Assembly: GCA_964537895.1 (NCBI GenBank) | Contig: CAZIDK010000001.1 | Coordinates: forward strand, 51,229 to 115,228 | DNA length: 64,000 nt | Direction: 5' to 3' | Origin: an uncultured Gammaproteobacteria bacterium | Lineage (GTDB): Bacteria > Patescibacteriota > Microgenomatia > Levybacterales > UBA12049 | Shown: positions 3,419-41,643 of the stretch, piece by piece | How the letters are laid out: every line of letters starts with the position of its first letter | How positions within the stretch are numbered: the first letter of the stretch is position 1 | Made by a program: the position numbers and the translations under genes | The notes under the pieces: model-generated | The model's input: the letters and a program-made list of their open reading frames with translations, nothing else | What the model was told of the DNA's origin: nothing | The model's database searches: none

Positions 3419-4066
3419 ATGAAGTCTCTAATGATTGCGCACCGCGGAGATACTGTAAATTTTCCGGAAAATACTATCGCAGCTTTTGAGTCTGCTTTTG
3501 AAAAAGGAGCCGACGGAATAGAATTGGATGTTCATTTAGACAAGAATGGAAATGTAATCGTTGTCCACGATTATTTATTTGACGAGAATAAAAAATATCC
3601 ATTTCTAGAAGACGTATTAAAACAATTCGGACAAAAAGGACGACTGGAAATAGAAATAAAATCTCTGGACCCAAAATGCGTTACCGAAGTTGGAAAGTTG
3701 ATTAAAAAATATAATCCAAAAGACTTTGAAATTACTTCCAGTGTTTTACCACTTTTCCACTACATTAAAAAAGAATTTCCAGATGAAAAAATAGGTTTGA
3801 TTTTTGATGAAAAACTTCTTTCCGAATGGATGACAAAAGAATTTATCGAAAAACTGTTTCTTTCCTATATGAAATTAACCGGCGCAAATGTTTTTCATAT
3901 TTCTTTGGATTATTGGTCAAAAAATCTTGTGAATCTTATGCACAAAAATGATTTTTTAACGCACGTTCATTTAAAAAATTGGGGAATTGATAAATATAGA
4001 GAAGCTGTAGATTTAGGAATTGATCAAATTACTACTGATGACATAAATCTAATTAAGAAAATTTGA
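3419..4066 (+). CDS. Glycerophosphodiester phosphodiesterase (GDPD family)
   Basis: IAHRGD...ENT...AF...GADGIELDVHLDKNGNVIVVHD matches the GDPD catalytic signature (HR(G)...E...D). Confidence 0.8.
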   Translation: MKSLMIAHRGDTVNFPENTIAAFESAFEKGADGIELDVHLDKNGNVIVVHDYLFDENKKYPFLEDVLKQFGQKGRLEIEIKSLDPKCVTEVGKLIKKYNPKDFEITSSVLPLFHYIKKEFPDEKIGLIFDEKLLSEWMTKEFIEKLFLSYMKLTGANVFHISLDYWSKNLVNLMHKNDFLTHVHLKNWGIDKYREAVDLGIDQITTDDINLIKKI

Positions 4067-4089
4067 CTTCTGAGTCTGTATCCTATAAT
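4063..4089 (+). promoter_or_regulatory. Sigma70-like promoter, TTGACT-N15-TATAAT, 10 nt upstream of the ATG at 4100
   Basis: TTGACT at 4063-4068 and TATAAT at 4084-4089. The predicted start site is within a few nt of the ATG, giving a leaderless or very short-leader mRNA. Confidence 0.5.
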
Positions 4090-18700: not shown

Positions 18701-19162
18701 ATCCTGTATAGCTGTAAAGAAAACACCGGGACTTCTAACCAGCTGGCTTACAACCGCTCTTTCTATTCCGTTAACGATAAACGTAGCCCTGTCTGTCATC
18801 TGGGGTATATCTCCTAAGAATACTTCCTGGTCGATTGTTGAGTTGGTTTTTTTATTAATGAGGGTTGCGTTAACATAAAGAGGAGCATCGTAGGTTAATC
18901 CTTTGCTTAAACAGACTGTCGGATCACTGCTGATTTTTCCAAGTCTATAATCTTTCAAAACCAGGTTCCAGTTTTTTTCCGTAAAATCGTCTATTGGGGA
19001 TATTTCCTGAAGAATCTGGGCAATTCCTTTTTCCAAAAACCATTGATAGGATTCTTTTTGAATTTTGAGTAAATCTAAATTAGGTAATAAGGAATGTTGT
19101 TTTCCCCAATTAGTTCTTATAATATGATCCTTGTTGTCTGTCTTATCGGATTTTTTTGCCAT
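15740..19162 (-). CDS. rpoB: DNA-directed RNA polymerase beta subunit
   Basis: Full-length beta homology (1140 aa), conserved regions throughout. Confidence 0.95.
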   Translation of the reverse strand: MAKKSDKTDNKDHIIRTNWGKQHSLLPNLDLLKIQKESYQWFLEKGIAQILQEISPIDDFTEKNWNLVLKDYRLGKISSDPTVCLSKGLTYDAPLYVNATLINKKTNSTIDQEVFLGDIPQMTDRATFIVNGIERAVVSQLVRSPGVFFTAIQDNVTGKNLYTAEIRPVHGSWLEFTTTRHETIMVKIDRRRKFLASTFLRALGISSNDDIREKFKNLEADGKTSFIQNTLQKDETGDATGALIEIFRKMHPGEPVVLDKVRENFNGMFFNNRRYDLGGVGRYKINKKLQETTGFNPANEDVRILTVDDIIGAISFLISLAKGENGVDDIDSLANRRVRCVGELVATTAFRIGVLRLERSIKERMTLIQPDIPVSIAGLINARPIMASINEFFRTSQLSTILDQTNPLSEIDNLNRLTVMGTGGISRERAAFSIRDINSSQYSRVCPIRSPEGPNIGLVTYLALYTRINEYGFLESPYRKVVHENRGKNVVSKATKELVYMTADDEREHYITHAEVLSDKDIIEEDRVPARYQGEFIETERENVEFVDVVPRQVVGSAASLIPFVSHDEANRALMGTHMQCQAVPLVIPKSPIVGTGMEKSISSVMERVILAPYDGEITYADASKVTIKGKGQKEELSYNIDSFKRTSQATAYTQKTMVVTLQKVKKGDLLVDGPASDNGELALGQNLLIAYTSLDGLGYEDGIVISDRLVKEDVLSSIHIEKYEAAVVETKLGPEETTRDIPNVSEEDLANLDEDGIVVVGSGVGPGDIIVGKIAPKGETELTAEERLLRAIFGEQAREVRDTSLRMPHGERGTVISVHILDRKKGDELEPGTLRKIIVEVAQFRHVVIGDKLAGRHGNKGVISRILPEVDMPHLANGTAVDIIISPISVLARMNLGQLLEAHLGWAELTLNKKVGIPVFEEVQEQRIVDELKKAGLPANGKATLYDGRTGDAYDNPAVVGVEYVMKLIHMVEDKTHARSTGPYSLVTQQPLGGKAQMGGQRLGEMEVWALEAHRARYTLQEMLTIKSDDVVGRAKAFEAIVKGTDIPTPKVPESFKVLIKELQALGLNVIPMGATISDKPIDLPLIETAAEEKAEEKVEKQAKELQKELGGGEVIEKAQEISVGQTGEEEAQKEVVNE

Positions 19163-19261
19163 CTGATAAATTAATCTTATTTATCTTATAGGATGGCTGG
19201 ATAATGCCAAAAAAATGGCAAAGGTATTTCACCCTTTCCATTTGCTTCCTATAGAGTGCTA

Positions 19262-19430
19262 AGTTTATACCATAGAAATTAAGCCTGTGTCAAGGAGTAA
19301 AATTTACTCCGAAGACCCTGAGTTAAATCGAACGGGTCAAGCCCCAAATTACAAGAGCGCTGACCCTGAGCGTTACAATCCTGAGCGTAGTCGAAGGAAC
19401 GTCGAAGAGGCAAGGAGTAAAATTTATATC
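19262..19430. repeat. REP/MITE-like repeat, copy C, flanked by a 16-bp direct repeat
   Basis: The 16-mer caaggagtaaaattta occurs at 19291-19306 and 19411-19426. The core shares tcgaacgggtcaag, gaccctgagcgttacaatc and gtcgaaggaa modules with copy F. Confidence 0.55.
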
Positions 19431-19843
19431 AACTTTTCGTAAATTACAAAATCAACGTGGCGGTAATGGTTTTTTAAGTCTCCGGTTTTTACAAAGCCCA
19501 AGGATTCGTAAAATTTTCCCACCTCCCAAGTTTTTCCGGTTATAAGATAGGCTTTATGCCCGCCTTTTTCTTTTGCAAATTCCTCTGCCTTTTTAACCAA
19601 CGCTTTACCGACTCCCGAATGTCTTTTACCTTTTGCAACAATCAAATCATCTATATACAAAACGCCCTCTTGATATTTGCCCGCGATTATTCCCACTGTC
19701 TTACCGTCTTCTCCTGCTTTAAAAACATAATCTTCGTCAATCCACCCCGCTGACTTGCCGTAATATTTAATATCCGCATCAACCCATTCCTTGTCTCTAA
19801 ATTCTTTAATTTCTTCATTGGTAGATTTACTAATCGTAATCAT
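19424..19843 (-). CDS. GNAT family N-acetyltransferase
   Basis: KRHSGVGKALVKKAEEF acetyl-CoA-binding-like motif; 139 aa. Confidence 0.65.
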   Translation of the reverse strand: MITISKSTNEEIKEFRDKEWVDADIKYYGKSAGWIDEDYVFKAGEDGKTVGIIAGKYQEGVLYIDDLIVAKGKRHSGVGKALVKKAEEFAKEKGGHKAYLITGKTWEVGKFYESLGFVKTGDLKNHYRHVDFVIYEKLI

Positions 19844-19849
19844 ACAAAA

Positions 19850-19864
19850 ATTATACCACGCGGG
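19850..19864 (-). promoter_or_regulatory. Conserved promoter module CCCGCG-TGGTATAAT, 7 nt upstream of the ATG (leaderless)
   Basis: Minus sense: taatttCCCGCGTGGTATAATttttgtATG. The same module precedes the genes at 20733, 21859 and 22769. Confidence 0.55.
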
Positions 19865-20037
19865 AAATTAAATCATACTTACGCAAACCTTGCAATCCAA
19901 CAAAGAACGTTAAGGTTTTGTGACTGAGTGCGTCAGGGGAATTCCTCAGCTTACTGAAAGTGAGATTGAGGAAGGGGTGAAATTACCCGACAAACGAAGG
20001 AACAAAAATAGTTCGGCTTGGCTTGCAAAAAGTTTTG

Positions 20038-20058
20038 CGCTACTTTCCAAAAAGTAGC
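20038..20058 (-). terminator. Candidate hairpin terminator downstream of the 20102-20407 gene
   Basis: GCTACTTT-ccaa-AAAGTAGC 8-bp stem, then a ttttt-containing tail in minus sense. Confidence 0.35.
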
Positions 20059-20101
20059 AGAGAAAATTAAATCAAATAAAACCAGCTGCTAAGAAATCAA
20101 A

Positions 20102-20407
20102 CTAAATAATTTTTACTCTGTGAGTAAGAATATTTCCCCACGTCATCATTTGCTCGGCCCACTCAATTTTTTCCTGTTGGGTTTTTATGTTTTTTTTTTC
20201 AAGCAATAAGTATTCTTCCAAGAATTTATCAAAGGTTTTTTGAAAAGGCTTGGAAAGAGAGGATTTATCAATGGAATCTATATACTCTTTTGTTTCTTCC
20301 AAAAAAATATCTATTCTTTTTTTCTTTTTTTCGTAATCATCAGCCGCCAGATTTCCTATTCTATTTAGGTTCATGGCAATATCTAATATTTTTGCTTTAT
20401 TACTCAT
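20102..20407 (-). CDS. Hypothetical small protein (101 aa)
   Basis: ORF only; 4-nt overlap with the upstream gene. Confidence 0.4.
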   Translation of the reverse strand: MSNKAKILDIAMNLNRIGNLAADDYEKKKKRIDIFLEETKEYIDSIDKSSLSKPFQKTFDKFLEEYLLLEKKNIKTQQEKIEWAEQMMTWGNILTHRVKII

Positions 20408-20733
20408 AAAATTAAACTTTTAACTATTCTGTCAAATTCTTTTCTTATTTCGGAAGACATTATATCTCTTGACGGATTGTCCTCACTTGGACGAAGATTT
20501 ATTATTGAATTGTAATCTATTTCTTTTGTTTCTAAATCTACTCCTCCGCCCCAAAGATTTTGCTGTTTTGAGCCCTCACCCAAAAGTTTCTGTTCTCCTT
20601 CAAAATGTCTTTTTCCTCCCCCTGCTAAAATCTCCTGGTCAATATCAACAACTACTTTTATATAACCGTCGAAATCCTCTGCCATTTTTTTTATTTCTTC
20701 TTTAGTTGCTTTTTTATTTATAGTAAGAAGCAT
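20404..20733 (-). CDS. Hypothetical small protein (110 aa); possibly DUF5674-like, a weak recollection
   Basis: Start moved to the ATG at 20733 (MLLTINKK...), which is 9 nt downstream of a conserved CCCCGCGTGGTATAAT module (20743-20758). The ORF-track extension to 20874 would overlap the nuclease gene. Confidence 0.5.
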   Translation of the reverse strand: MLLTINKKATKEEIKKMAEDFDGYIKVVVDIDQEILAGGGKRHFEGEQKLLGEGSKQQNLWGGGVDLETKEIDYNSIINLRPSEDNPSRDIMSSEIRKEFDRIVKSLIL

Positions 20734-20742
20734 CGTTTTTTG

Positions 20743-20758
20743 ATTATACCACGCGGGG
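20743..20758 (-). promoter_or_regulatory. Conserved promoter module CCCCGCG-TGGTATAAT (leaderless), copy 2
   Basis: Minus sense: ccccgcgTGGTATAATcaaaaaacgATG. Confidence 0.55.
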
Positions 20759-20761
20759 AAA

Positions 20762-21469
20762 TTAAGGAAGTGATTCGCAGGCAAGTCCGTCGCCATCGGA
20801 GTCAAGTCTATGCGGATCGCTACTAGGCCCGCCTTGAGATATAAAAAAAGCTTGAGCTTGCGTATGAGTTGCAAAATCAGAGCAATCTTTATCTTCTGCT
20901 ATATTTTGAACAGGAACGCTTTTTGTTGTTGTTGGTTTTACAGTAGTTGGATTATTTACAGGACACGTCCCCCACAAACCCAGATTATTTTCTCTTGCAT
21001 ATCTTTCAAAACTATTAAACTTCTCAAGCATTTTTGTCGGATATTGTTTATAAGAAAAAGCATATCCTTGCTTTATCATTTCTCCATTAATAAAAGTCGC
21101 CTTGCTATCGGGTAAATATACATATCTAAGCAGTCTCTTGTATTTATCTCTGTTTCCCTGCGTTGAATCATCAACCAGTTTTACATATTTTCCTAAGACA
21201 AAAGATTTCATTTTGTCCGACGCGGCCTTACCAAAACACTGAACAGGTTTTCTCGGGTCAACGGTTTCCGGTGTATCTATTCCCAAAAGCCTTACGCTCT
21301 CGTTTTTTCCTCGAATACTAACAGTTATGGTATCTCCGTCGACAACCTTAACAACTTTAAATAATTTTTTCTTATCCATTTCTGAATCCTTATAAGAAAA
21401 GACGGGGTTAGTGTTAAAAACAGAAAGAAGTAAAAAAAACAAGAAGGCAAAAACAAACATTCTCTTCAT
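20762..21469 (-). CDS. Secreted thermonuclease (SNase-like) with a C-terminal Excalibur calcium-binding domain
   Basis: N-terminal signal peptide. A central region resembles the staphylococcal nuclease fold. C-terminal DSDGDGLACE matches the Excalibur DxDxDGxxCE motif. Confidence 0.6.
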   Translation of the reverse strand: MKRMFVFAFLFFLLLSVFNTNPVFSYKDSEMDKKKLFKVVKVVDGDTITVSIRGKNESVRLLGIDTPETVDPRKPVQCFGKAASDKMKSFVLGKYVKLVDDSTQGNRDKYKRLLRYVYLPDSKATFINGEMIKQGYAFSYKQYPTKMLEKFNSFERYARENNLGLWGTCPVNNPTTVKPTTTKSVPVQNIAEDKDCSDFATHTQAQAFFISQGGPSSDPHRLDSDGDGLACESLP

Positions 21470-21476
21470 ACCGGCA

Positions 21477-21485
21477 TTATATCAC
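21477..21485 (-). promoter_or_regulatory. Extended -10 (TGATATAAT) 6 nt upstream of the nuclease ATG
   Basis: Minus sense: ttaggTGATATAATgccggtATG. Confidence 0.45.
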
Positions 21486-21508
21486 CTAAAGTCAGCCGAG
21501 AAAATGAG

Positions 21509-21859
21509 TCATTTCAACTGGCTGTCTGAAAGACCAAAATGATGACCAATTTCGTGGATTACGGTTTGTCTAACTTGAGCTCTTACTTGTTCTTCCGTCT
21601 GCGCCACTTTTTCTATTGCGTTTTTAAAAATTGTGATCTTATCAGGAAGTGTGCTGTAGTAAATTCCTCTTTTCGTCTGCGGAACTCCTTCGTAAAGCCC
21701 CAGAAGTAAAACCCCGAACGGTAGCTTTGATTTTCTAAGTTGGTAAAATGTCGGAAAGTCATCAACAACTACCGAAACATTATTTAGTTTTTCCGCAAAT
21801 TCTTTTGGCATAGAATCCAAGGCTTCTGCAACCAATTCCCTAAATCTTTTTTCATCCAT
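21509..21859 (-). CDS. Small zincin-like metallopeptidase (HExxH)
   Basis: TVIHEIGHHFGLSD contains an HExxH zinc-binding motif; 116 aa. Confidence 0.5.
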   Translation of the reverse strand: MDEKRFRELVAEALDSMPKEFAEKLNNVSVVVDDFPTFYQLRKSKLPFGVLLLGLYEGVPQTKRGIYYSTLPDKITIFKNAIEKVAQTEEQVRAQVRQTVIHEIGHHFGLSDSQLK

Positions 21860-21869
21860 AAGTTAACAA

Positions 21870-21883
21870 ATTATACCACGGGG
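21870..21883 (-). promoter_or_regulatory. Conserved promoter module CCCCG-TGGTATAAT (leaderless), copy 3
   Basis: Minus sense: ccccgTGGTATAATttgttaacttATG. Confidence 0.55.
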
Positions 21884-21918
21884 AGATTTTGACTAGGAAG
21901 TCAAATTAAAATATGGAA

Positions 21919-21944
21919 GTTTAGTTTCTATATCATATATTAAT
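21919..21944. promoter_or_regulatory. 26-bp perfect palindrome TATATCATATATTAATATATGATATA
   Basis: Self-complementary over all 26 nt. Lies between the promoter of 21509-21859 and the 3' end of 22041-22769, so it could be an operator or a cruciform. Confidence 0.5.
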
Positions 21945-22040
21945 ATATGATATAACGGACGCATTACCGGAGCTGGATACTAAGCTTAGTAAGCTTAAAA
22001 GTCAGCGGGAGAATTTAAATTGGGCTAAGAAGTCAAATTA

Positions 22041-22769
22041 TTATTTAAAATATTCTTTTAGTTTTGCAATTTCTTGTTTATAGACTTCTTGGACTAAATC
22101 ATATTCCCAAGGGCTATGATCTTGTCCTTTAAGAATCATAAAAGGCTGGCCTTTTTCTTTAACTATTTCGATAACTTTTTCTCTCAACGGTTTGCTAATA
22201 AATCTGTCTTTCTCTCCGAAAACAAGATGTATTCCCCCCATATAATCCTGCAAACATTTAAAGACATTCGCGTCGTGTGCTTCTTTCCAAAACCTCCCTT
22301 TATATTTTTGTCCCCCTTCTTCAAATACCTCATCATAACCTCCTTTAAAATCTCCGTCGTTTACGCCGGGAACCCAAAGAAAAATACAGGGAATTTTATT
22401 TTTTATTTCCGTTCTTGAAGTAGCAACCGTAATTGCGGCGGCGCCCATGCTTTGCCCCATTAAAGTAACTTTATATCCCAAATCTAAATATTTCTTAGTA
22501 AAATAAACAATTGTGTTAATCCATTCGTTATAAGAAACGTCCAAAAAATCTCCATCGGAATTGCCGTTATTTGGCAGGTCAAAACGCAAAACCGAAAAGC
22601 CTTCTTTATTTAAAAGTCTTTGAAAATCAACAAACTGTCTTGCAGGCCCTACCGAAGCTCCTCTAAATCCATGAACCATAATTACTATCTTTTTTTGAGA
22701 TGAGTCGGGTTCGGAGAAATAACAAAAGATTTTCTTTCCGCTAATTTCTTCAAAATATACTTTCTCCAT
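22041..22769 (-). CDS. Alpha/beta hydrolase
   Basis: GQSMGAA nucleophile elbow (GxSxG) and an HG oxyanion motif (MVHGFRG). Confidence 0.7.
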   Translation of the reverse strand: MEKVYFEEISGKKIFCYFSEPDSSQKKIVIMVHGFRGASVGPARQFVDFQRLLNKEGFSVLRFDLPNNGNSDGDFLDVSYNEWINTIVYFTKKYLDLGYKVTLMGQSMGAAAITVATSRTEIKNKIPCIFLWVPGVNDGDFKGGYDEVFEEGGQKYKGRFWKEAHDANVFKCLQDYMGGIHLVFGEKDRFISKPLREKVIEIVKEKGQPFMILKGQDHSPWEYDLVQEVYKQEIAKLKEYFK

Positions 22770-22775
22770 AATATG

Positions 22776-22790
22776 AGTATATCACGGGGG
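22776..22790 (-). promoter_or_regulatory. Conserved promoter module CCCCCG-TGATATACT (leaderless), copy 4
   Basis: Minus sense: cccccgTGATATACTcatattATG. Confidence 0.45.
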
Positions 22791-22800
22791 AAAATTCGTG

Positions 22801-22895
22801 GCTAATTATAATCTCTTCGAGCTCCTCGAGTCTGAGCCTCGGCGTCGAAGACCTGAGTCTCAGAGCCGAAGGCCTGAGTGAGTCGAAGGAGAAGT
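22801..22895. repeat. REP/MITE-like repeat, copy D (contains an exact 45-nt duplicate of 40884-40928)
   Basis: 22813-22857 (ctcttcgagctcctcgagtctgagcctcggcgtcgaagacctgag) equals 40884-40928. Followed by imperfect ~13-nt tandem units (ccgaaggcctgag-like). Confidence 0.7.
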
Positions 22896-22927
22896 CAAAT
22901 TAATTTTTCTTGCCTTATAATCAAATT

Positions 22928-23134
22928 CTATTTTGTATTTATTAAAAAATAGGGGAGGTTTTCCTGTGGAACTTTGAATAACGTGGGTTTTTTATATCCC
23001 TTTTGTAAAGCCTCTTTGTAGGCCTTTTCGGCGTTTTTATTTGAGCTAATAACTTTTTTTAGAGATTCATCTAGGGCTACCCACATTCCTTTATATTTAT
23101 TGAATATTTTAGTCAAATTTGTACTCATTTTCAT
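22928..23134 (-). CDS. Small antitoxin-like protein (DUF5678-like)
   Basis: 68 aa; the KGMWVAL...KKVISS...KPTLFKVP pattern recalls DUF5678. No partner toxin gene is adjacent. Confidence 0.4.
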   Translation of the reverse strand: MKMSTNLTKIFNKYKGMWVALDESLKKVISSNKNAEKAYKEALQKGYKKPTLFKVPQENLPYFLINTK

Positions 23135-23173
23135 GTTGTGTTAATTATAACATAATAATGGAAATTGAAAAAC

Positions 23174-23257
23174 CCGCGGGTTGAGCGGAGCGAAATACTC
23201 CTTACTATGAGTAGAGCGAAATGGTGAGTGCGATTGAACCACTAAGAAGTCAGATTA
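23174..23257. repeat. Direct repeat flanking the toxin-antitoxin cassette, copy 1
   Basis: cgggttgagcgRagcRaaat...ggtgagtg...gaaccactaagaagtcaRatta, shared with 24040-24099 in the same orientation. Confidence 0.7.
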
Positions 23258-23409
23258 TAGACTTTGCACGTTCTCTTCAATTTTTGTCAGACAAACTCTG
23301 GGACATTGACTTTTTGACCAAAAGTGAGTAAACTTCTACGAAGTAGATGTTTACTTCAATACAGGATTATTTAGCTTTGATATAAAAATATTATAAGATA
23401 TAATTTAAT

Positions 23410-23616
23410 ATGCCAGATATAATTGAAACAAAACCAAACATCCTAGGCGGAATGCCAGTTATAAAAGGAACTAGGATTCCTATCGCGCGTGTTGTGGCAT
23501 TATATGTTCAAGGCTATAAGATAAAAGATTTCAAGAGAGATTATCCTTATCTCACAATTACAAAAGAGGATATAGCAAACATATTCTCCCATTATTCTCA
23601 CCTTGCATCAAAATAA
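23410..23616 (+). CDS. DUF433 family antitoxin-like protein
   Basis: GGMPVIKGTRIPIARVV matches the DUF433 core. TATAAT is 5 nt upstream of the ATG. Confidence 0.6.
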   Translation: MPDIIETKPNILGGMPVIKGTRIPIARVVALYVQGYKIKDFKRDYPYLTITKEDIANIFSHYSHLASK

Positions 23617-23962
23617 GAATACAAACAAAAAGCGTAAGTTTAGATTATTATTAGATTCTGCATTTGCTAAACCTGATCAATTTCCCAAGCTAGCTAAAAA
23701 GGCAAAGTTATTACATGTAGTTCATGATTTGGGATTATCTAAACAGGCTGCGGATATAGATATCTACCAAAAGGCACTTGAAGAAAACTGCTTCGTATTA
23801 ACAATTAACTTTAGGCATTTTAGGAAGTTTGTTGTTAGTGGTAAACCGGGAGTAATTGGAATAGATTCGCAGCTGTCTAATGACGAAATTGACTCAATTG
23901 TTGTAAAGTTTATCTCTGGGAAAAATCCTGATGACTTTCTAGGAAAAGCTATTAAAATTTAA
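23603..23962 (+). CDS. DUF5615 (PIN-like / Mut7-C RNase-like) toxin-like protein
   Basis: LLLDSAF...VVHDLGL...ADIDIYQKALEENCFVLTINFRHF...GVIGI pattern of DUF5615. Overlaps the DUF433 gene by 14 nt, a typical toxin-antitoxin arrangement. Confidence 0.55.
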   Translation: MHQNKNTNKKRKFRLLLDSAFAKPDQFPKLAKKAKLLHVVHDLGLSKQAADIDIYQKALEENCFVLTINFRHFRKFVVSGKPGVIGIDSQLSNDEIDSIVVKFISGKNPDDFLGKAIKI

Positions 23963-24045
23963 CTGCTTTCTACAATTTTTATTTCTTCCGGAGTGAGGGC
24001 TGAAAGATTAGTCCAAAAAACCGCAGAGGCTAAGGTTTTCCCGCC
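23959..24045 (-). pseudogene. Remnant 3' end of a DNA methyltransferase-like gene (ends ...LSALTPEEIKIVESS*)
   Basis: The minus-strand frame encodes the TaqI_C-like C-terminal tail (LTxEEIxIVE) seen in N6-adenine methyltransferases / type IIG enzymes, but no long ORF precedes it. The 21-mer ttctacaatttttatttcttc recurs at 26050-26070. Confidence 0.4.
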
Positions 24046-24099
24046 GGGTTGAGCGAAGCAAAATGGTGAGTGAAATCGAACCACTAAGAAGTCAAATTA
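24040..24099. repeat. Direct repeat flanking the toxin-antitoxin cassette, copy 2
   Basis: Matches 23174-23257 and ends with the same gaaccactaagaagtcaaatta motif. Confidence 0.7.
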
Positions 24100-24118
24100 A
24101 TTTTTCGACTCTAAAGAT

Positions 24119-24781
24119 TTATAGTTGTTCCGTTAAGAATCTTTGCACTCCTTCAAGCATAGATTTGACATCCTCTGTCTTGTATTCACTAAATTTACCA
24201 TGGTCAGCACTGTCTCTTATTGCTTTCCAGGCTTGGATTTGTTTCTGAAGCAATCGATTGTAAATTTCTTTGTCTGCTAACTTTGCATTAAGCGATCCAA
24301 TATCATCGCCTGATTTGACATCTATTGTGTGTTTTTGTGCAATTTGTCTTAAACCGTTTTCTAAAACAGCACCTACAAGAGAAGCAGCGGAGTCTTTATA
24401 ATTATTGTCCAAAAGATGTTTGGCCATCTGGATAAAATCAGTAAAAATCTCTGCGCTTACTAAATCCCTAACTTTCGTTAAATATCCAAGTTCCAGATCT
24501 TCCTTCAGCGCTTTAAGAATGCCTACACCGTGATCAACATCTCCCGGGAAGGCTGACTTAACTTCCTCAACAAAATTTTTATAATAAGGGCTGTTTTCTC
24601 CGCAAACCAACAGGATGAAGTTTTGTGCATTATTTTTCCACTCGTGAAACGAAGCAGTATTAACTCTGTCAGGAGCCACAGCATAAGCCGAACTGTTGCT
24701 ATAACGCGTAGAAGCAACGCTTTGTGCTTTTGTCAGAAGCTGTGTAGCGCGTTCAATAAGTTTTTCTGTTGTTGAGTTCAT
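24119..24781 (-). CDS. HEPN-like protein (Rx4H motif near the C-terminus)
   Basis: All-helical 220-aa protein with AIRDSADHGKF (R-x4-H), the HEPN RNase signature. Sits 20 nt downstream of the DUF1508 gene and has its own GAGGA Shine-Dalgarno. Confidence 0.4.
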   Translation of the reverse strand: MNSTTEKLIERATQLLTKAQSVASTRYSNSSAYAVAPDRVNTASFHEWKNNAQNFILLVCGENSPYYKNFVEEVKSAFPGDVDHGVGILKALKEDLELGYLTKVRDLVSAEIFTDFIQMAKHLLDNNYKDSAASLVGAVLENGLRQIAQKHTIDVKSGDDIGSLNAKLADKEIYNRLLQKQIQAWKAIRDSADHGKFSEYKTEDVKSMLEGVQRFLTEQL

Positions 24782-25457: not shown

Positions 25458-26044
25458 TGAAAGAACCAAGCTTGACCTATCAAGACGTAGCTAATGCTGC
25501 AAATAACTTTTTAAAAACTTACCATTCTTCTCTTAAATTACCAATTCCCATAGAAGAAATAGTTGAGCTTAAAATGAATATTGCTATAGTTGCAGTACCG
25601 GGAATTAAGAAGCTCTTGGGGATAGATGCATTTATAAGTTCTGATTTTACTCAGATTACTGTGGATGAAAACTCCCTACTTAAATTTACTAAAAGAACTA
25701 GATTTTCCATAGCACATGAAATAGGTCATTTGATATTGCATAAAGATTGGTACGAGAAATATGGTCCTAAAGACTTTGAAGATTATTTGACGTTTTACGA
25801 TCGCATAGATAATAAAGTATATAAATATATGGAGATTCAAGCTCATACATTTGCTGGATTGGTTTTAGTTCCATCCAGTCTATTATTCAATGAGCTTAAA
25901 ATCAGAATTGGTAAAATCCCACATCTAGAAATACCTGAGATTCTTATTCCAGTAGCTCAGGATTTATTAGAGATATTTGAAGTATCAGGAGAAGTAATGT
26001 TTAGACGATTGCAAAAAGAAAAAATAATAAAATCCAATTCTTAA
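25457..26044 (+). CDS. ImmA/IrrE family metallo-endopeptidase (COG2856)
   Basis: Contains HEIGHLILH (HExxH). Translationally coupled to the XRE gene, the classic XRE-ImmA arrangement. Confidence 0.7.
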   Translation: MKEPSLTYQDVANAANNFLKTYHSSLKLPIPIEEIVELKMNIAIVAVPGIKKLLGIDAFISSDFTQITVDENSLLKFTKRTRFSIAHEIGHLILHKDWYEKYGPKDFEDYLTFYDRIDNKVYKYMEIQAHTFAGLVLVPSSLLFNELKIRIGKIPHLEIPEILIPVAQDLLEIFEVSGEVMFRRLQKEKIIKSNS

Positions 26045-26185
26045 GAATTTTCTACAATTTTTATTTCTTCGGGGGTTAGTCCGTAAAGTTTGTAAACTTC
26101 TTCATCGATTTTTTTATCTATCTTTTCAATTTCAGCTTTTATCGAATTCCATTGATTAGAATTTTCTGAAGTAGCCAATATTTTT
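26041..26185 (-). pseudogene. Remnant 3' end of a DNA methyltransferase-like gene (ends ...IDEEVYKLYGLTPEEIKIVENS*)
   Basis: The minus-strand frame reads SENSNQWNSIKAEIEKIDKKIDEEVYKLYGLTPEEIKIVENS*, a TaqI_C-like C-terminal tail. Only about 45 codons, preceded by a stop. Shares ttctacaatttttatttcttc with 23968-23988. Confidence 0.45.
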
Positions 26186-39150: not shown

Positions 39151-39262
39151 TATGACCCATTCGGGGCTTCGACTGAGCTCAGCCGAATGTCCAAACTCAG
39201 GCCTTCGGCTCTGAGGCTCAGGCTCGAAGAGATTCTGAGTAAATCGAAGAATGAGGAAATCG
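39151..39262. repeat. REP/MITE-like repeat, copy E (inverted orientation of the ccgaaggcctgag units)
   Basis: Contains ctcaggccttcggctctgag, the reverse complement of the unit in copies D and F, plus the local palindrome gactgagctcagcc. Confidence 0.55.
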
Positions 39263-40835: not shown

Positions 40836-41015
40836 ATGTCAAGCCCCGATTATAATCTGGGCGCAGACCCTGAGTGTTACAATCTCTTCGAGCTCCTCGA
40901 GTCTGAGCCTCGGCGTCGAAGACCTGAGCGGTTCGACTGAGCTCACCGTCGAAGTCCTCAGAGCCGATGGCCTGAGCGAAGTCGAAGGAAAATCGAACGG
41001 GTCAAGAGTCAGATT
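40836..41015. repeat. REP/MITE-like repeat, copy F (longest; bounded by gtcaag motifs)
   Basis: Contains all family modules, including the exact 45-nt match to copy D (40884-40928). Both ends share gggtcaag. Confidence 0.7.
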
Positions 41016-41643
41016 TAATTTCCAGGTTTCTTTTTAAGATTGTTTCCTTACCAAATCTATTTACTACTCTAATTATAATTGTTGTTTTCCCCGGAAAAAC
41101 ATTAATAACTTTTGTAAAAGCTCCGTTGCTATCTACGGAAACGGAAAATTTATCAACAAAAACGGTGGCGTTGGGGTCTGTTTTTCCAATAACGGTAACA
41201 GCATTTGAAGAAATAACTGCATTTTCTGCGGGGGCTGATATATAAACCGAGGGGTTAACTAAAGCTCCCCTATATTGAAACAAAATATACCCTATTAGAG
41301 TTAAGCAAACTAAAAAAACTAAAAATAAAGTTTGTTTTGACTTAAATCTTGATAACGAAAGGTCTTTTGTTTTGGTAAAACCAAGAGGTAAAACTTTTAT
41401 TGCTTTTTCTTGGTCAAATTCTCTTCTGAAAAGCGCCAGGGTTTCCTTCTCGGGCAGATTAAGAAATCTTGCGTAATTCCGAACAAACCCTTGGGCATAA
41501 GTTACAGACGGAAGTTTTTCGTATTCTCCTTTTTCTATTGCCTCAAGAAAAGTAACTTTTATTTTTGTACTTTGGGAAACATTTTCCAAGGTTAAATTTT
41601 TTTGCAAACGTGCTTCCTGAAATTTTTGTCCAACCTTTATCAT
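41002..41643 (-). CDS. RodZ-like cytoskeleton protein (HTH + TM + C-terminal domain)
   Basis: N-terminal XRE-type HTH (LTLENVSQSTKIKVTFLEAIEKGEY), a central TM helix and a C-terminal beta-rich domain. Confidence 0.55.
   Translation of the reverse strand: MIKVGQKFQEARLQKNLTLENVSQSTKIKVTFLEAIEKGEYEKLPSVTYAQGFVRNYARFLNLPEKETLALFRREFDQEKAIKVLPLGFTKTKDLSLSRFKSKQTLFLVFLVCLTLIGYILFQYRGALVNPSVYISAPAENAVISSNAVTVIGKTDPNATVFVDKFSVSVDSNGAFTKVINVFPGKTTIIIRVVNRFGKETILKRNLEIKSDS

What the first reader, a model, noticed from the sequence alone, without database searches (positions are those of the whole stretch)
23174..24099. DUF433/DUF5615 toxin-antitoxin pair bracketed by 60-85-bp direct repeats (cassette-like)
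Repeats at 23174-23257 and 24040-24099 share cgggttgagcgRagcRaaat...ggtgagtg...gaaccactaagaagtcaRatta in the same orientation and enclose only the two overlapping toxin-antitoxin genes. Copy 1 has a small internal duplication, and it also carries the promoter region of the neighbouring DUF5678 gene. The arrangement suggests insertion or excision of the toxin-antitoxin pair by recombination between repeats.
Basis: seen in the sequence. Interest (0 to 1): 0.5.

Follow-up and report, generated by a model that had tools for sequence, protein, structure and literature searches.

The report
Toxin-antitoxin module between shared gene-junction repeats
The two repeats around this toxin-antitoxin pair are real, but their constant 16-base end is a junction motif found at many accessory-gene boundaries in this Levybacteria-like genome and its relatives, so the pair is one horizontally mobile module in a tiled array and has no private attachment sites.

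Summary
The repeats exist as described: 23174-23257 and 24040-24099, direct, 84-90% identical, with a 26-nt insertion in copy 1. Independent assemblies reproduce them.

Each repeat has two parts. One is a GC-rich tail found only in these two copies. The other is a 16-nt end, CTAAGAAGTCAAATTA, which reads TAATTTGACTTCTTAG on the strand of most genes. That 16-mer also lies at four more gene junctions between 20 and 24 kb, all in the same orientation, and once more at 4059. It recurs in several Levybacteria/Patescibacteria genomes next to defence-type genes.

The motif has stop codons in all three frames and a TTGACT box.

The toxin-antitoxin (TA) pair is a horizontally mobile module. It occurs in at least five other genomic contexts, and the toxin is 96% identical where a neighbouring gene is 43% identical. 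In the four closest relatives it keeps a copy of the motif 25-36 nt upstream.

The homology breakpoints, and one duplication or circle junction, fall inside the motif core.

No recombinase and no empty site were found.

The motif fits neither integron attC sites nor Xer dif sites.

The recombining unit is probably the short motif rather than the 60-85-bp repeats. Interest is moderate.

The parts
23174..23257 (-). Repeat copy 1. It consists of the junction motif (23242-23257, CTAAGAAGTCAGATTA on the + strand) plus a 68-nt GC-rich tail with a 26-nt internal insertion. The tail ends in a terminator-like hairpin and T run (23189-23173, then the T run).
   Evidence: No significant single-strand fold (z -0.2 and -0.7).
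24040..24099 (-). Repeat copy 2. It consists of the junction motif (24084-24099, exact CTAAGAAGTCAAATTA) plus a 44-nt GC-rich tail. It begins 20 nt downstream of the HEPN stop codon (24119).
   Evidence: No significant fold (z +0.4 and +0.1).
23248..23969 (+). The mobile TA module as delimited by cross-genome homology. From left to right: motif core AGTCAGATTA; a variable 25-36 nt; promoter P1 (23306-23334); an inverted repeat that is a likely operator (23327-23355); promoter P2 (23377-23404); DUF433 antitoxin (23410-23616); DUF5615 PIN-like toxin (23603-23962).
   Evidence: L003 and L042 share homology from AGTCAAATTA to the toxin stop at 92.7%.
23959..24009 (-). Relic of the C-terminal coding end of a restriction-modification gene ('..LTPEEIKIVESS*'). 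Its stop codon overlaps the toxin stop codon within TTAA.
   Evidence: The related relic at 26041-26178 matches the 3' end of a 908-aa gene in L012 and the gene end upstream of HEPN in L031.
22887..22902 (-). Junction motif copy 26 nt after the DUF5678 stop codon. It is the outer end of a 98-nt GC-rich imperfect palindrome (22805-22902).
   Evidence: z -2.6. 22806-22857 is 98% identical to 40877-40928.
22025..22040 (-). Junction motif copy that abuts the stop codon of the alpha/beta-hydrolase gene (22041).
21893..21908 (-). Junction motif copy (CTAGGAAGTCAAATTA) upstream of the zincin promoter. With the copy at 22025 it brackets a gene-less 116-nt segment.
20089..20104 (-). Degenerate junction motif (CTAAGAAATCAAACTA) that overlaps the stop codon of the 101-aa gene.
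4059..4074 (+). Junction motif copy in the opposite orientation (AAATTTGACTTCTGAG). It supplies the TGA stop codon of the + strand GDPD gene. It sits 15-17 nt upstream of a TATAAT/TAATAT box for the next gene.
23144..23171 (-). DUF5678 promoter (extended -10). It is adjacent to repeat copy 1 but not inside it.

Best explanation
The two repeats are local sister copies of a short non-coding gene-end unit. The constant part of that unit is a 16-nt junction motif. On the strand of most genes it reads TAATTTGACTTCTTAG, and in relatives it often continues CCACAAAAGAGT.

In this Levybacteria-like lineage of the candidate phyla radiation (CPR), the motif punctuates accessory and defence gene modules in one fixed orientation. 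It supplies stop codons in all three frames: TAA, TGA and TAG. It also carries an outward-facing TTGACT box that can pair with a downstream -10 box to form a promoter.

The DUF433/DUF5615 pair is one such module. It runs from AGTCAAATTA through its own promoters to the toxin stop codon, and it has moved horizontally between diverged genomes. The motif in copy 1 is the module's own end. The motif in copy 2 belongs to the neighbouring HEPN side. The TA pair therefore looks bracketed because modules that each end in the same motif are tiled next to one another.

Shown:
- the repeats themselves;
- the dispersal and co-orientation of the motif;
- the mobility of the module;
- the breakpoint positions.

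Inferred:
- modules are exchanged by recombination within the motif core (TCAAATTA), carried out by an enzyme encoded elsewhere or by short-homology recombination after DNA uptake;
- the GC-rich tails are secondary additions next to the motif.
For: 1. The motif is over-represented and co-oriented. There are 9 hits against 2.1 expected, and 6 of 6 copies between 20 and 24 kb are on one strand even though the TA genes are on the other. L003 has 6 co-oriented copies in 2.6 kb. L042 has 3, and L045, L019 and L049 have 2 each.
2. It lies at or over the stop codon of the upstream gene in the window and in L003, L007, L010, L012, L013, L015, L016 and L019. Seven of about 14 gene-adjacent copies use a stop codon inside the motif.
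3. The TA module is shared with L003 (89.6%), L042 (91.6%) and L045 (83.9%), each in a different neighbourhood. Each has a motif copy 25-36 nt upstream of the homology start. Homology between L003 and L042 starts inside the motif at AGTCAAATTA and ends at the toxin stop codon.
4. There is evidence of horizontal transfer. The toxin is 96% identical in amino acids between the window and L042, while the adjacent His_Phos_1 gene is 43% identical. Core genes are 74-77% identical in nucleotides to L019 and L049.
5. Contig L004 equals L003 up to ..AAACTCAAATTATTTTT. It then continues 112/112 identical to the start of the same 320-nt element. This is a tandem-duplication or circle junction, with the crossover inside the motif core.
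6. Genes next to the motif in other genomes are of the mobile or defence type: DpnII restriction-modification, SLATT, a reverse transcriptase, Z1+DEAD, Fic and further TA pairs.
7. TTGACT followed by TAnnnT at 16-18 nt occurs in 8 of 27 copies, against a 7% background.
8. The GC-rich tail has no third copy, so only the motif is the general feature.
Against: - No recombinase or transposase was found among the window genes scanned with Pfam. Not every gene was scanned.
- None was found among the genes scanned around the motif in other loci.
- No empty site or excision product for the TA pair was found.
- On the toxin side the module is next to a motif only in L003 (16 nt away). In L042 it is 49 nt away and in the window 126 nt. 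L045 has none.
- More distant TA homologues (L043, L049) have no motif nearby.
- The exact 18-mer occurs only once or twice per genome in the species-representative genomes where it was found, so the sample is small: about 30 copies.
- Evidence for a crossover at the motif rests on one short contig (L004) and one pairwise breakpoint.
- The motif could be conserved for expression alone.
Confidence: 0.5

Rival explanations
1. The TA pair, carried on a circular or incoming DNA with one copy of the 60-85-bp sequence, integrated by homologous (Campbell-type) recombination into a resident copy. It can be lost again by recombination between the two direct repeats.
For: The two copies are each other's only relatives over the GC-rich 44-68 nt. 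They are direct and 842 bp apart. Stretches of 10-17 identical bases exist.
Against: - In every other context the TA module lacks this tail; only the 12-16-nt motif is shared.
- The interval also holds a relic of a foreign gene end, so it is not a clean insert.
- Identity is only 84-90%, with a 26-nt indel, which makes a poor substrate for homologous recombination.
- No empty site was found.
Confidence: 0.15
2. The repeats are selfish miniature elements of the REP or MITE kind. They inserted independently next to two neighbouring junction motifs, or carry the motif as their own terminus. They have no role in moving the TA pair.
For: - Other GC-rich intergenic repeats in the window end in the same or a similar tail: 22805-22902, 40877-41017, 19336-19425 and 39164-39231.
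- They share the short GAGCGAAG-type sub-motif.
- Public assemblies break at these repeats.
- One of them is a significant imperfect palindrome.
Against: - The two units themselves have no terminal inverted repeats, no target duplication and no significant hairpin.
- Only two copies are known.
- This model does not explain why the bare motif, without any tail, is conserved across species and travels with the TA module.
Confidence: 0.2
3. The motif is purely an expression signal: a translation stop in all three frames, the -35 box of the next promoter, and in some copies a small terminator. It is kept by selection at gene boundaries. Modules move by ordinary horizontal transfer and illegitimate recombination, and the motif is not a recombination site.
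For: - The motif has stop codons in three frames and genes use them.
- There is a -10-like box at 16-18 nt in 8 of 27 copies against 7% background. Examples with leaderless-type spacing are L019, the PadR gene in L045, and window 4059.
- At the orthologous hydrolase stop codons, L055 has TTTGACA-16-TATAAT and L056 has TAATTTGAAT.
- Copy 1 has a terminator-like hairpin.
Against: - Most local promoters are of the extended -10 type, with the TTGACT box at unsuitable distances of 14, 23 or 26 nt.
- In two thirds of copies there is no -10 box.
- An exact 16-18-mer, including the spacer bases TCTTAG, is shared across genomes whose core genes are about 75% identical. That is more than a generic -35 box needs.
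- The motif is rare: 1-2 exact copies per genome where it was found, and clustered in variable regions.
- In the TA and Fic modules it keeps the array orientation, not the gene orientation.
Confidence: 0.25

Closest known systems
Integron gene cassettes with attC sites, including clusters of attC sites that lack an integrase
   Same: - Co-oriented array of short modules, each ending in a related site.
- The site often supplies the stop codon.
- TA modules with their own promoters sit in the array (PMC13108822).
- Gene-less segments occur between sites (PMC11014356).
- The same module is found in different neighbourhoods with breakpoints in the site.
   Different: - There is no integron integrase and no attI site in 64 kb.
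- The site is 16-28 nt and is not an imperfect palindrome. It has no paired RYYYAAC/GTTRRRY boxes, only ATTTGAC at one end.
- The units around the TA pair do not fold as single strands (z about 0).
- Most modules carry their own promoter.
Xer-dependent dif modules of Acinetobacter plasmids
   Same: Small discrete accessory modules, including TA pairs, are bounded by a conserved site of about 28 bp. They are found in many contexts without a module-encoded recombinase (PMC6449649, PMC13141974).
   Different: - dif sites are 11-6-11 with palindromic inner arms, and they flank modules in inverted orientation (PMC6449649).
- Here the motif has no dyad symmetry and all copies are direct.
- The setting is chromosomal, in a CPR bacterium.
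REP/BIME repeats and Correia-type miniature elements
   Same: These are GC-rich extragenic repeats at gene ends in an AT-rich genome. Some are palindromic, some carry promoter or terminator-like boxes at their ends, and they cause assembly breaks (general knowledge of these families).
   Different: - The two units of the finding are not palindromic.
- Only two copies are known.
- They have no terminal inverted repeats or target duplications.
- The conserved part is an AT-rich 16-mer shared across species and linked to a mobile gene module.
Outward-facing -35 boxes at insertion-sequence termini (hybrid promoters)
   Same: A TTGACT box sits at the very end of the transferred segment. The breakpoint falls right after GACT. 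The box pairs with whatever -10 box lies beyond it.
   Different: No transposase, inverted repeats or target duplications are present. The box is part of a longer conserved motif that also ends reading frames.

Membership tests
Integron cassette / attC | The site is an imperfect palindrome of 57-141 nt whose single strand folds into a hairpin (R''-L''...L'-R'). | tested here: not met
   ssDNA folds of 23174-23257 and 24040-24099 on both strands gave z scores from -0.7 to +0.4. The neighbouring 22805-22902 element does fold (z -2.6) but is a different repeat.
Integron cassette / attC | Core boxes RYYYAAC at the 5' end and GTTRRRY at the 3' end. | tested here: not met
   Read from the sequence. 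Only ATTTGAC (one mismatch to RYYYAAC) is present at one end. There is no matching GTTRRRY at the far end of either unit.
Integron cassette / attC | An adjacent intI tyrosine recombinase and an attI site. | tested here: not met
   Pfam scans of 40 window proteins found no integrase. Not every ORF in the window was scanned.
Integron cassette / attC | The same cassette occurs in different arrays, with boundaries in the site. | tested here: inconclusive
   The left boundary lies in the motif and there is one junction contig. The right boundary is next to a motif only in L003.
Xer dif module | A 28-bp site made of two 11-bp arms with palindromic inner parts and a 6-bp spacer. | tested here: not met
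   The consensus ACTCTTTTGTGGCTAAGAAGTCAAATTA has no dyad symmetry. Only the single copy at 21885-21908 (ATTTTGAC TAGGAA GTCAAATT) has one. The feature definition is from PMC6449649.
Xer dif module | Modules are flanked by sites in inverted orientation (C/D and D/C). | tested here: not met
   All flanking copies are direct.
REP / REPIN | A short extragenic palindrome present in many copies per genome. | tested here: not met
   There are two copies of this unit and no hairpin. The whole genome was not available, so the copy number is a lower bound.
REP / REPIN | An associated RAYT (Y1 transposase) gene in the genome. | not testable with these tools
   Only 64 kb of this genome is held. No such gene was seen in it.
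MITE | Terminal inverted repeats and a target-site duplication. | tested here: not met
   The unit ends are CCCGCCGGG... and ...AAATTA, which are not inverted. The flanks differ.
Genomic islet integrated at a tRNA 3' end | The direct repeats derive from a tRNA or tmRNA gene, and an integrase is next to the insert. | tested here: not met
   There was no tRNA or other Rfam hit in 19100-24200 at E up to 5. ARAGORN found none. The only link is a shared 10-mer with the tRNA at 9806-9907. No integrase is present.
Type II toxin-antitoxin pair (DUF433 antitoxin / DUF5615 PIN-like toxin) | Two small overlapping genes with the two family domains, their own promoter, and an operator-like inverted repeat. 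| tested here: met
   DUF433 matched at E 6e-15. DUF5615 scored 22.2 bits (cut-off 23.8), and homologues carry PF18480. The genes overlap by 14 nt. Promoters and an inverted repeat at 23327-23355 are present. Toxic activity was not tested.

The most novel reading that the evidence does not exclude
Levybacteria and related Patescibacteria have a previously undescribed cassette system. Small defence and accessory modules would be captured and shuffled by site-specific recombination at an asymmetric 16-28-nt site, TAATTTGACT|TCTTAGCCAC.., with the crossover in the TCAAATTA core. The same site would also act as three-frame stop punctuation and as an outward -35 box. The recombinase would be unlinked, possibly RNA- or host-factor-assisted. 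The result would be integron-like arrays without attC hairpins, located at hot spots such as the regions upstream of rpoB and alaS.
Probability: 0.2. Interest if true: 0.75.

Novelty: new variant of a known kind. Interest (0 to 1): 0.45.

Why it matters
CPR bacteria have tiny genomes. How they gain and turn over defence genes is poorly understood.

A short, oriented junction motif shared across species appears to delimit horizontally exchanged modules. The modules seen next to it include TA pairs, restriction-modification genes, Fic and SLATT. If this holds, the motif is a simple sequence handle for finding their variable gene pool in metagenomes. If recombination at the motif is confirmed, it would be a new cassette mechanism outside the integron and Xer paradigms.

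If instead the motif is only an expression signal, it is still a useful annotation rule for this lineage, marking a gene end plus the next promoter. It would also explain why assemblies fragment here.

Tried and rejected
- attC-like hairpin: rejected by single-strand folding.
- dif-like dyad: rejected by inspecting the consensus against the published definition.
- tRNA-derived attachment site: the T-arm-like GGTTCGATT and a shared 10-mer with the window's tRNA looked suggestive. However, they lie on opposite strands, and neither Rfam nor ARAGORN gave a hit.
- Known RNA family: none at the gathering threshold in the whole window apart from one tRNA, and none at E up to 5 in 19.1-24.2 kb.
- DNA-uptake-sequence idea: rejected. 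The exact 18-mer is rare (1-2 copies per genome where found), it is clustered, and it is strictly oriented.
- Small-RNA gene driven by the motif: rejected. There is no acceptable -10 box in the two units.
- Search for an empty site:
  - The metagenome scan with the HEPN protein gave 12 loci, all in different restriction-modification contexts.
  - Exact-protein look-ups for HEPN, DUF433, DUF5678 and the hydrolase returned only the same strain or unrelated contexts.
  - Hydrolase orthologues show no conserved gene order.
- My first idea that the relic at 23959-24009 is the end of the methyltransferase that follows HEPN in relatives was dropped. That gene ends differently. The relic matches the type of gene that precedes HEPN in L031.
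- Viral contig scans: 16 single hits, which looks like chance level (my rough estimate, not computed), and none for the longer variant.
- Phage and plasmid collections: no match.
- Literature: nothing on the motif or on such repeats in CPR.

Full report
**1. The observation**

The window is AT-rich (37% G+C). In the region of the finding, small genes are separated by short GC-rich stretches.

The repeat finder recovers two direct repeats: 23208-23257 / 24050-24099 (50 nt, 84%) and 23177-23196 / 24045-24064 (20 nt, 90%). The 5' 19-mer occurs only at these two places in 64 kb, against none expected. Copy 1 carries a 26-nt insertion that partly duplicates the preceding GAGCGGAGCGAAAT. Two independent public assemblies reproduce the region at 100% identity.

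Between the repeats lie the following features:
- a DUF433 gene (23410-23616);
- an overlapping PIN-like DUF5615 gene (23603-23962). Its own Pfam score is just below the cut-off, but its homologues carry the domain;
- two promoter-like sites and an inverted repeat upstream of the genes;
- on the other strand at 23959-24009, a relic of the coding end of a restriction-modification gene.

The DUF5678 promoter (23171-23144) lies next to copy 1, not inside it. Copy 1 ends there in a small terminator-like hairpin.

**2. The repeats have two parts with different histories**

The 3' 16 nt, CTAAGAAGTCAAATTA, also occurs at 20089, 21893, 22025 and 22887, always on the + strand, and once at 4059 on the - strand. 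That is 9 hits with up to 3 mismatches, against 2.1 expected by chance.

A profile built from the two full units finds no third member in the window or in the fetched loci searched. The GC-rich 44-68 nt is therefore private to this pair, and the 16-mer is the general feature.

Other GC-rich intergenic repeats end in the same or a similar tail: 22805-22902, 40877-41017, 19336-19425 and 39164-39231. Short-read assemblies break at them.

**3. What the 16-mer looks like on the strand of the genes**

Read on the minus strand, the motif is TAATTTGACTTCTTAG. It sits at or just after the stop codon of the upstream gene:
- the hydrolase gene at 22041;
- HEPN, 20 nt downstream of the stop;
- DUF5678, 26 nt downstream of the stop;
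- the 101-aa gene;
- in the opposite orientation, the + strand GDPD gene at 4059-4074.

The motif holds TAA, TGA and TAG in the three frames. About half of the gene-adjacent copies use one of these as the gene's stop codon.

It also contains TTGACT. In 8 of 27 copies a TAnnnT box follows at 16-18 nt, against a 7% background. These include cases with a start codon a few bases further on.

In most window copies the distance to the real promoter is wrong, or a GC-rich tail intervenes. The real promoters are of the extended -10 type..CCCCGTGGTATAAT.

**4. The motif in other genomes**

A scan of species-representative genomes with an 18-mer found it in four Levybacteria and three Patescibacteria contigs, one or two exact copies each, plus presumably chance hits elsewhere. 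In those contigs it again follows gene ends. It often continues as ..CCACAAAAGAGT.

Neighbouring genes are of the accessory or defence kind:
- a DpnII restriction-modification system;
- a SLATT effector;
- a reverse transcriptase;
- a Z1+DEAD pair;
- Fic;
- other TA pairs.

In L019 the motif-bearing genes lie just upstream of rpoB, as in the window. In L049 a variable stretch with the motif and a related TA pair lies upstream of alaS, which also borders the window's accessory stretch.

**5. The TA pair is a mobile module that carries the motif at one end**

The same segment (window 23292/4 to 23962/9) occurs at 89.6% identity in L003, 91.6% in L042 and 83.9% in L045. More distant versions are in L043 and L049. 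All are in unrelated neighbourhoods.

The toxin is 96% identical between the window and L042, whereas the adjacent His_Phos_1 proteins are 43% identical. Core genes of related genomes are only 74-77% identical in nucleotides. This indicates horizontal transfer.

In all four close versions, a motif copy in the same relative orientation lies 25-36 nt upstream of the homology start. Between L003 and L042 the homology begins inside the motif, at AGTCAAATTA, and ends at the toxin stop codon.

On the toxin side the picture is looser. The distance from the toxin stop codon to a motif is 16 nt in L003, 49 nt (after a GC hairpin) in L042, and 126 nt in the window. L045 has none.

The motif in copy 1 is therefore the module's own end. 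Copy 2 belongs to the HEPN side. The bracket arises because neighbouring modules end in the same motif.

**6. Evidence for recombination at the motif**

Contig L004 is identical to L003, with one mismatch in 1203 nt, up to ..AAACTCAAATTATTTTT. It then continues 112/112 identical to the start of the same 320-nt element, which follows the previous motif copy.

Only 13 nt are shared at the joint, and the contig name (k141_...) suggests an assembly word size of 141. I therefore infer that the joint is present in reads rather than created by the assembler. It represents a tandem duplication or a circle with the crossover inside the motif core. Together with the L003/L042 breakpoint, this places exchange within TCAAATTA. 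This is suggestive, not proof.

**7. What was not found**

- No recombinase or transposase was found among 40 window proteins or among ten proteins near the motif in other loci.
- No empty site was found. Relatives of HEPN (73-87% amino-acid identity) sit in restriction-modification operons with no shared flanks. The hydrolase has orthologues in many Levybacteria but no conserved neighbours.
- The units do not fold.
- Nothing matches Rfam, and nothing matches the phage or plasmid collections.

**8. Comparison with known systems**

The arrangement works most like an integron cassette array or like the dif modules of Acinetobacter. These share small modules, TA pairs included, a shared boundary site, many contexts and no module-borne enzyme (PMC13108822, PMC11014356, PMC6449649, PMC13141974).

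It fails the defining tests of both:
- there is no hairpin-forming attC, no core boxes and no integrase;
- there is no 11-6-11 dyad and the sites are in direct rather than inverted orientation.

The GC-rich tails resemble REP or miniature-element repeats. The two units of the finding, however, are neither palindromic nor (so far) multicopy. The TTGACT box at the very end of the transferred segment recalls the outward -35 boxes of insertion sequences.

**9. Verdict**

The repeats are real. The cassette-like idea is partly right.

My best reading, at a confidence of about 0.5, is a tiled array of horizontally exchanged modules punctuated by a lineage-wide junction motif. Exchange most likely occurs at the motif. 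The extended 60-85-bp similarity would be a local duplication or a secondary addition.

Three alternatives remain open:
- a purely regulatory role for the motif;
- independent insertion of selfish repeats;
- classical recombination between the two long repeats.

Read-level data and a genome census would separate them.

Noticed in passing
window 19877-20092; L003 880-1185; L015 5569-5724 (- strand): A conserved non-coding element of about 150-300 nt lies between two motif copies in both the window and L003. Its core reads ..CAGGRGRATTCCTCA..TTGAGGARGRGGTGAAATYACCCG... Among only three sequences it shows 3-4 compensatory base-pair changes. It has no Rfam match. It may be a structured RNA, or a gene-less module.
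   Followed up: partly
L004 1186-1310 compared with L003 1186-1300: In one metagenome, the 320-nt element between two motif copies is joined end to start (112/112 identical after the joint). This is a tandem duplication or circular form, with the crossover within TCAAATTATTTTT.
   Followed up: partly
window 26041-26178 (-) and 23959-24009 (-): There are two relics of the C-terminal coding end of a large restriction-modification gene ('..YGLTPEEIKIVE..'). Each abuts the 3' end of a + strand operon (HTH-M78 and the TA pair), with the stop codons overlapping within TTAA. The longer relic matches the end of a 908-aa gene in L012 at 85%.
   Followed up: partly
window 24119-24781 (-); L028-L034: The HEPN gene beside the repeats has relatives at 81-87% amino-acid identity. 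They sit inside restriction-modification operons (small HTH gene, HEPN, DNA methylase) in unrelated contigs. In the window it is an orphan piece of such an operon.
   Followed up: partly
window 9806-9907 (-): Rfam reports a tRNA of 102 nt (51 bits), which suggests an intron or insertion. ARAGORN finds no tRNA anywhere in the window.
   Followed up: no
window 21862-21880, 22776-22804, 19850-19866; L042 1545-1560; L055; L015: Local promoters share an unusual extended form, TTTCCCC(N)GTGRTATAAT. The start codon follows only 7-11 nt after the -10 box, which suggests mostly leaderless transcripts in this lineage.
   Followed up: no
window 21929-21954: A perfect 26-nt AT-rich palindrome (TATATCATATATTAATATATGATATA) lies inside the gene-less 116-nt segment between the motif copies at 21893 and 22025.
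   Followed up: no
window 22806-22857 and 40877-40928; also 19336-19425 and 39164-39231 (-): A second family of GC-rich intergenic repeats is built from CCTGAGCGAAGTCGAAGG-like units. Two of its copies are 98% identical over 52 nt although they are 18 kb apart. Public short-read assemblies of the same strain break at these copies.
   Followed up: partly
window 19.2-31 kb; L019 1800-4200; L049 1-6300: The stretches upstream of rpoB and upstream of alaS hold different accessory and defence genes in each related genome. They look like conserved hot spots for gene turnover.
   Followed up: partly
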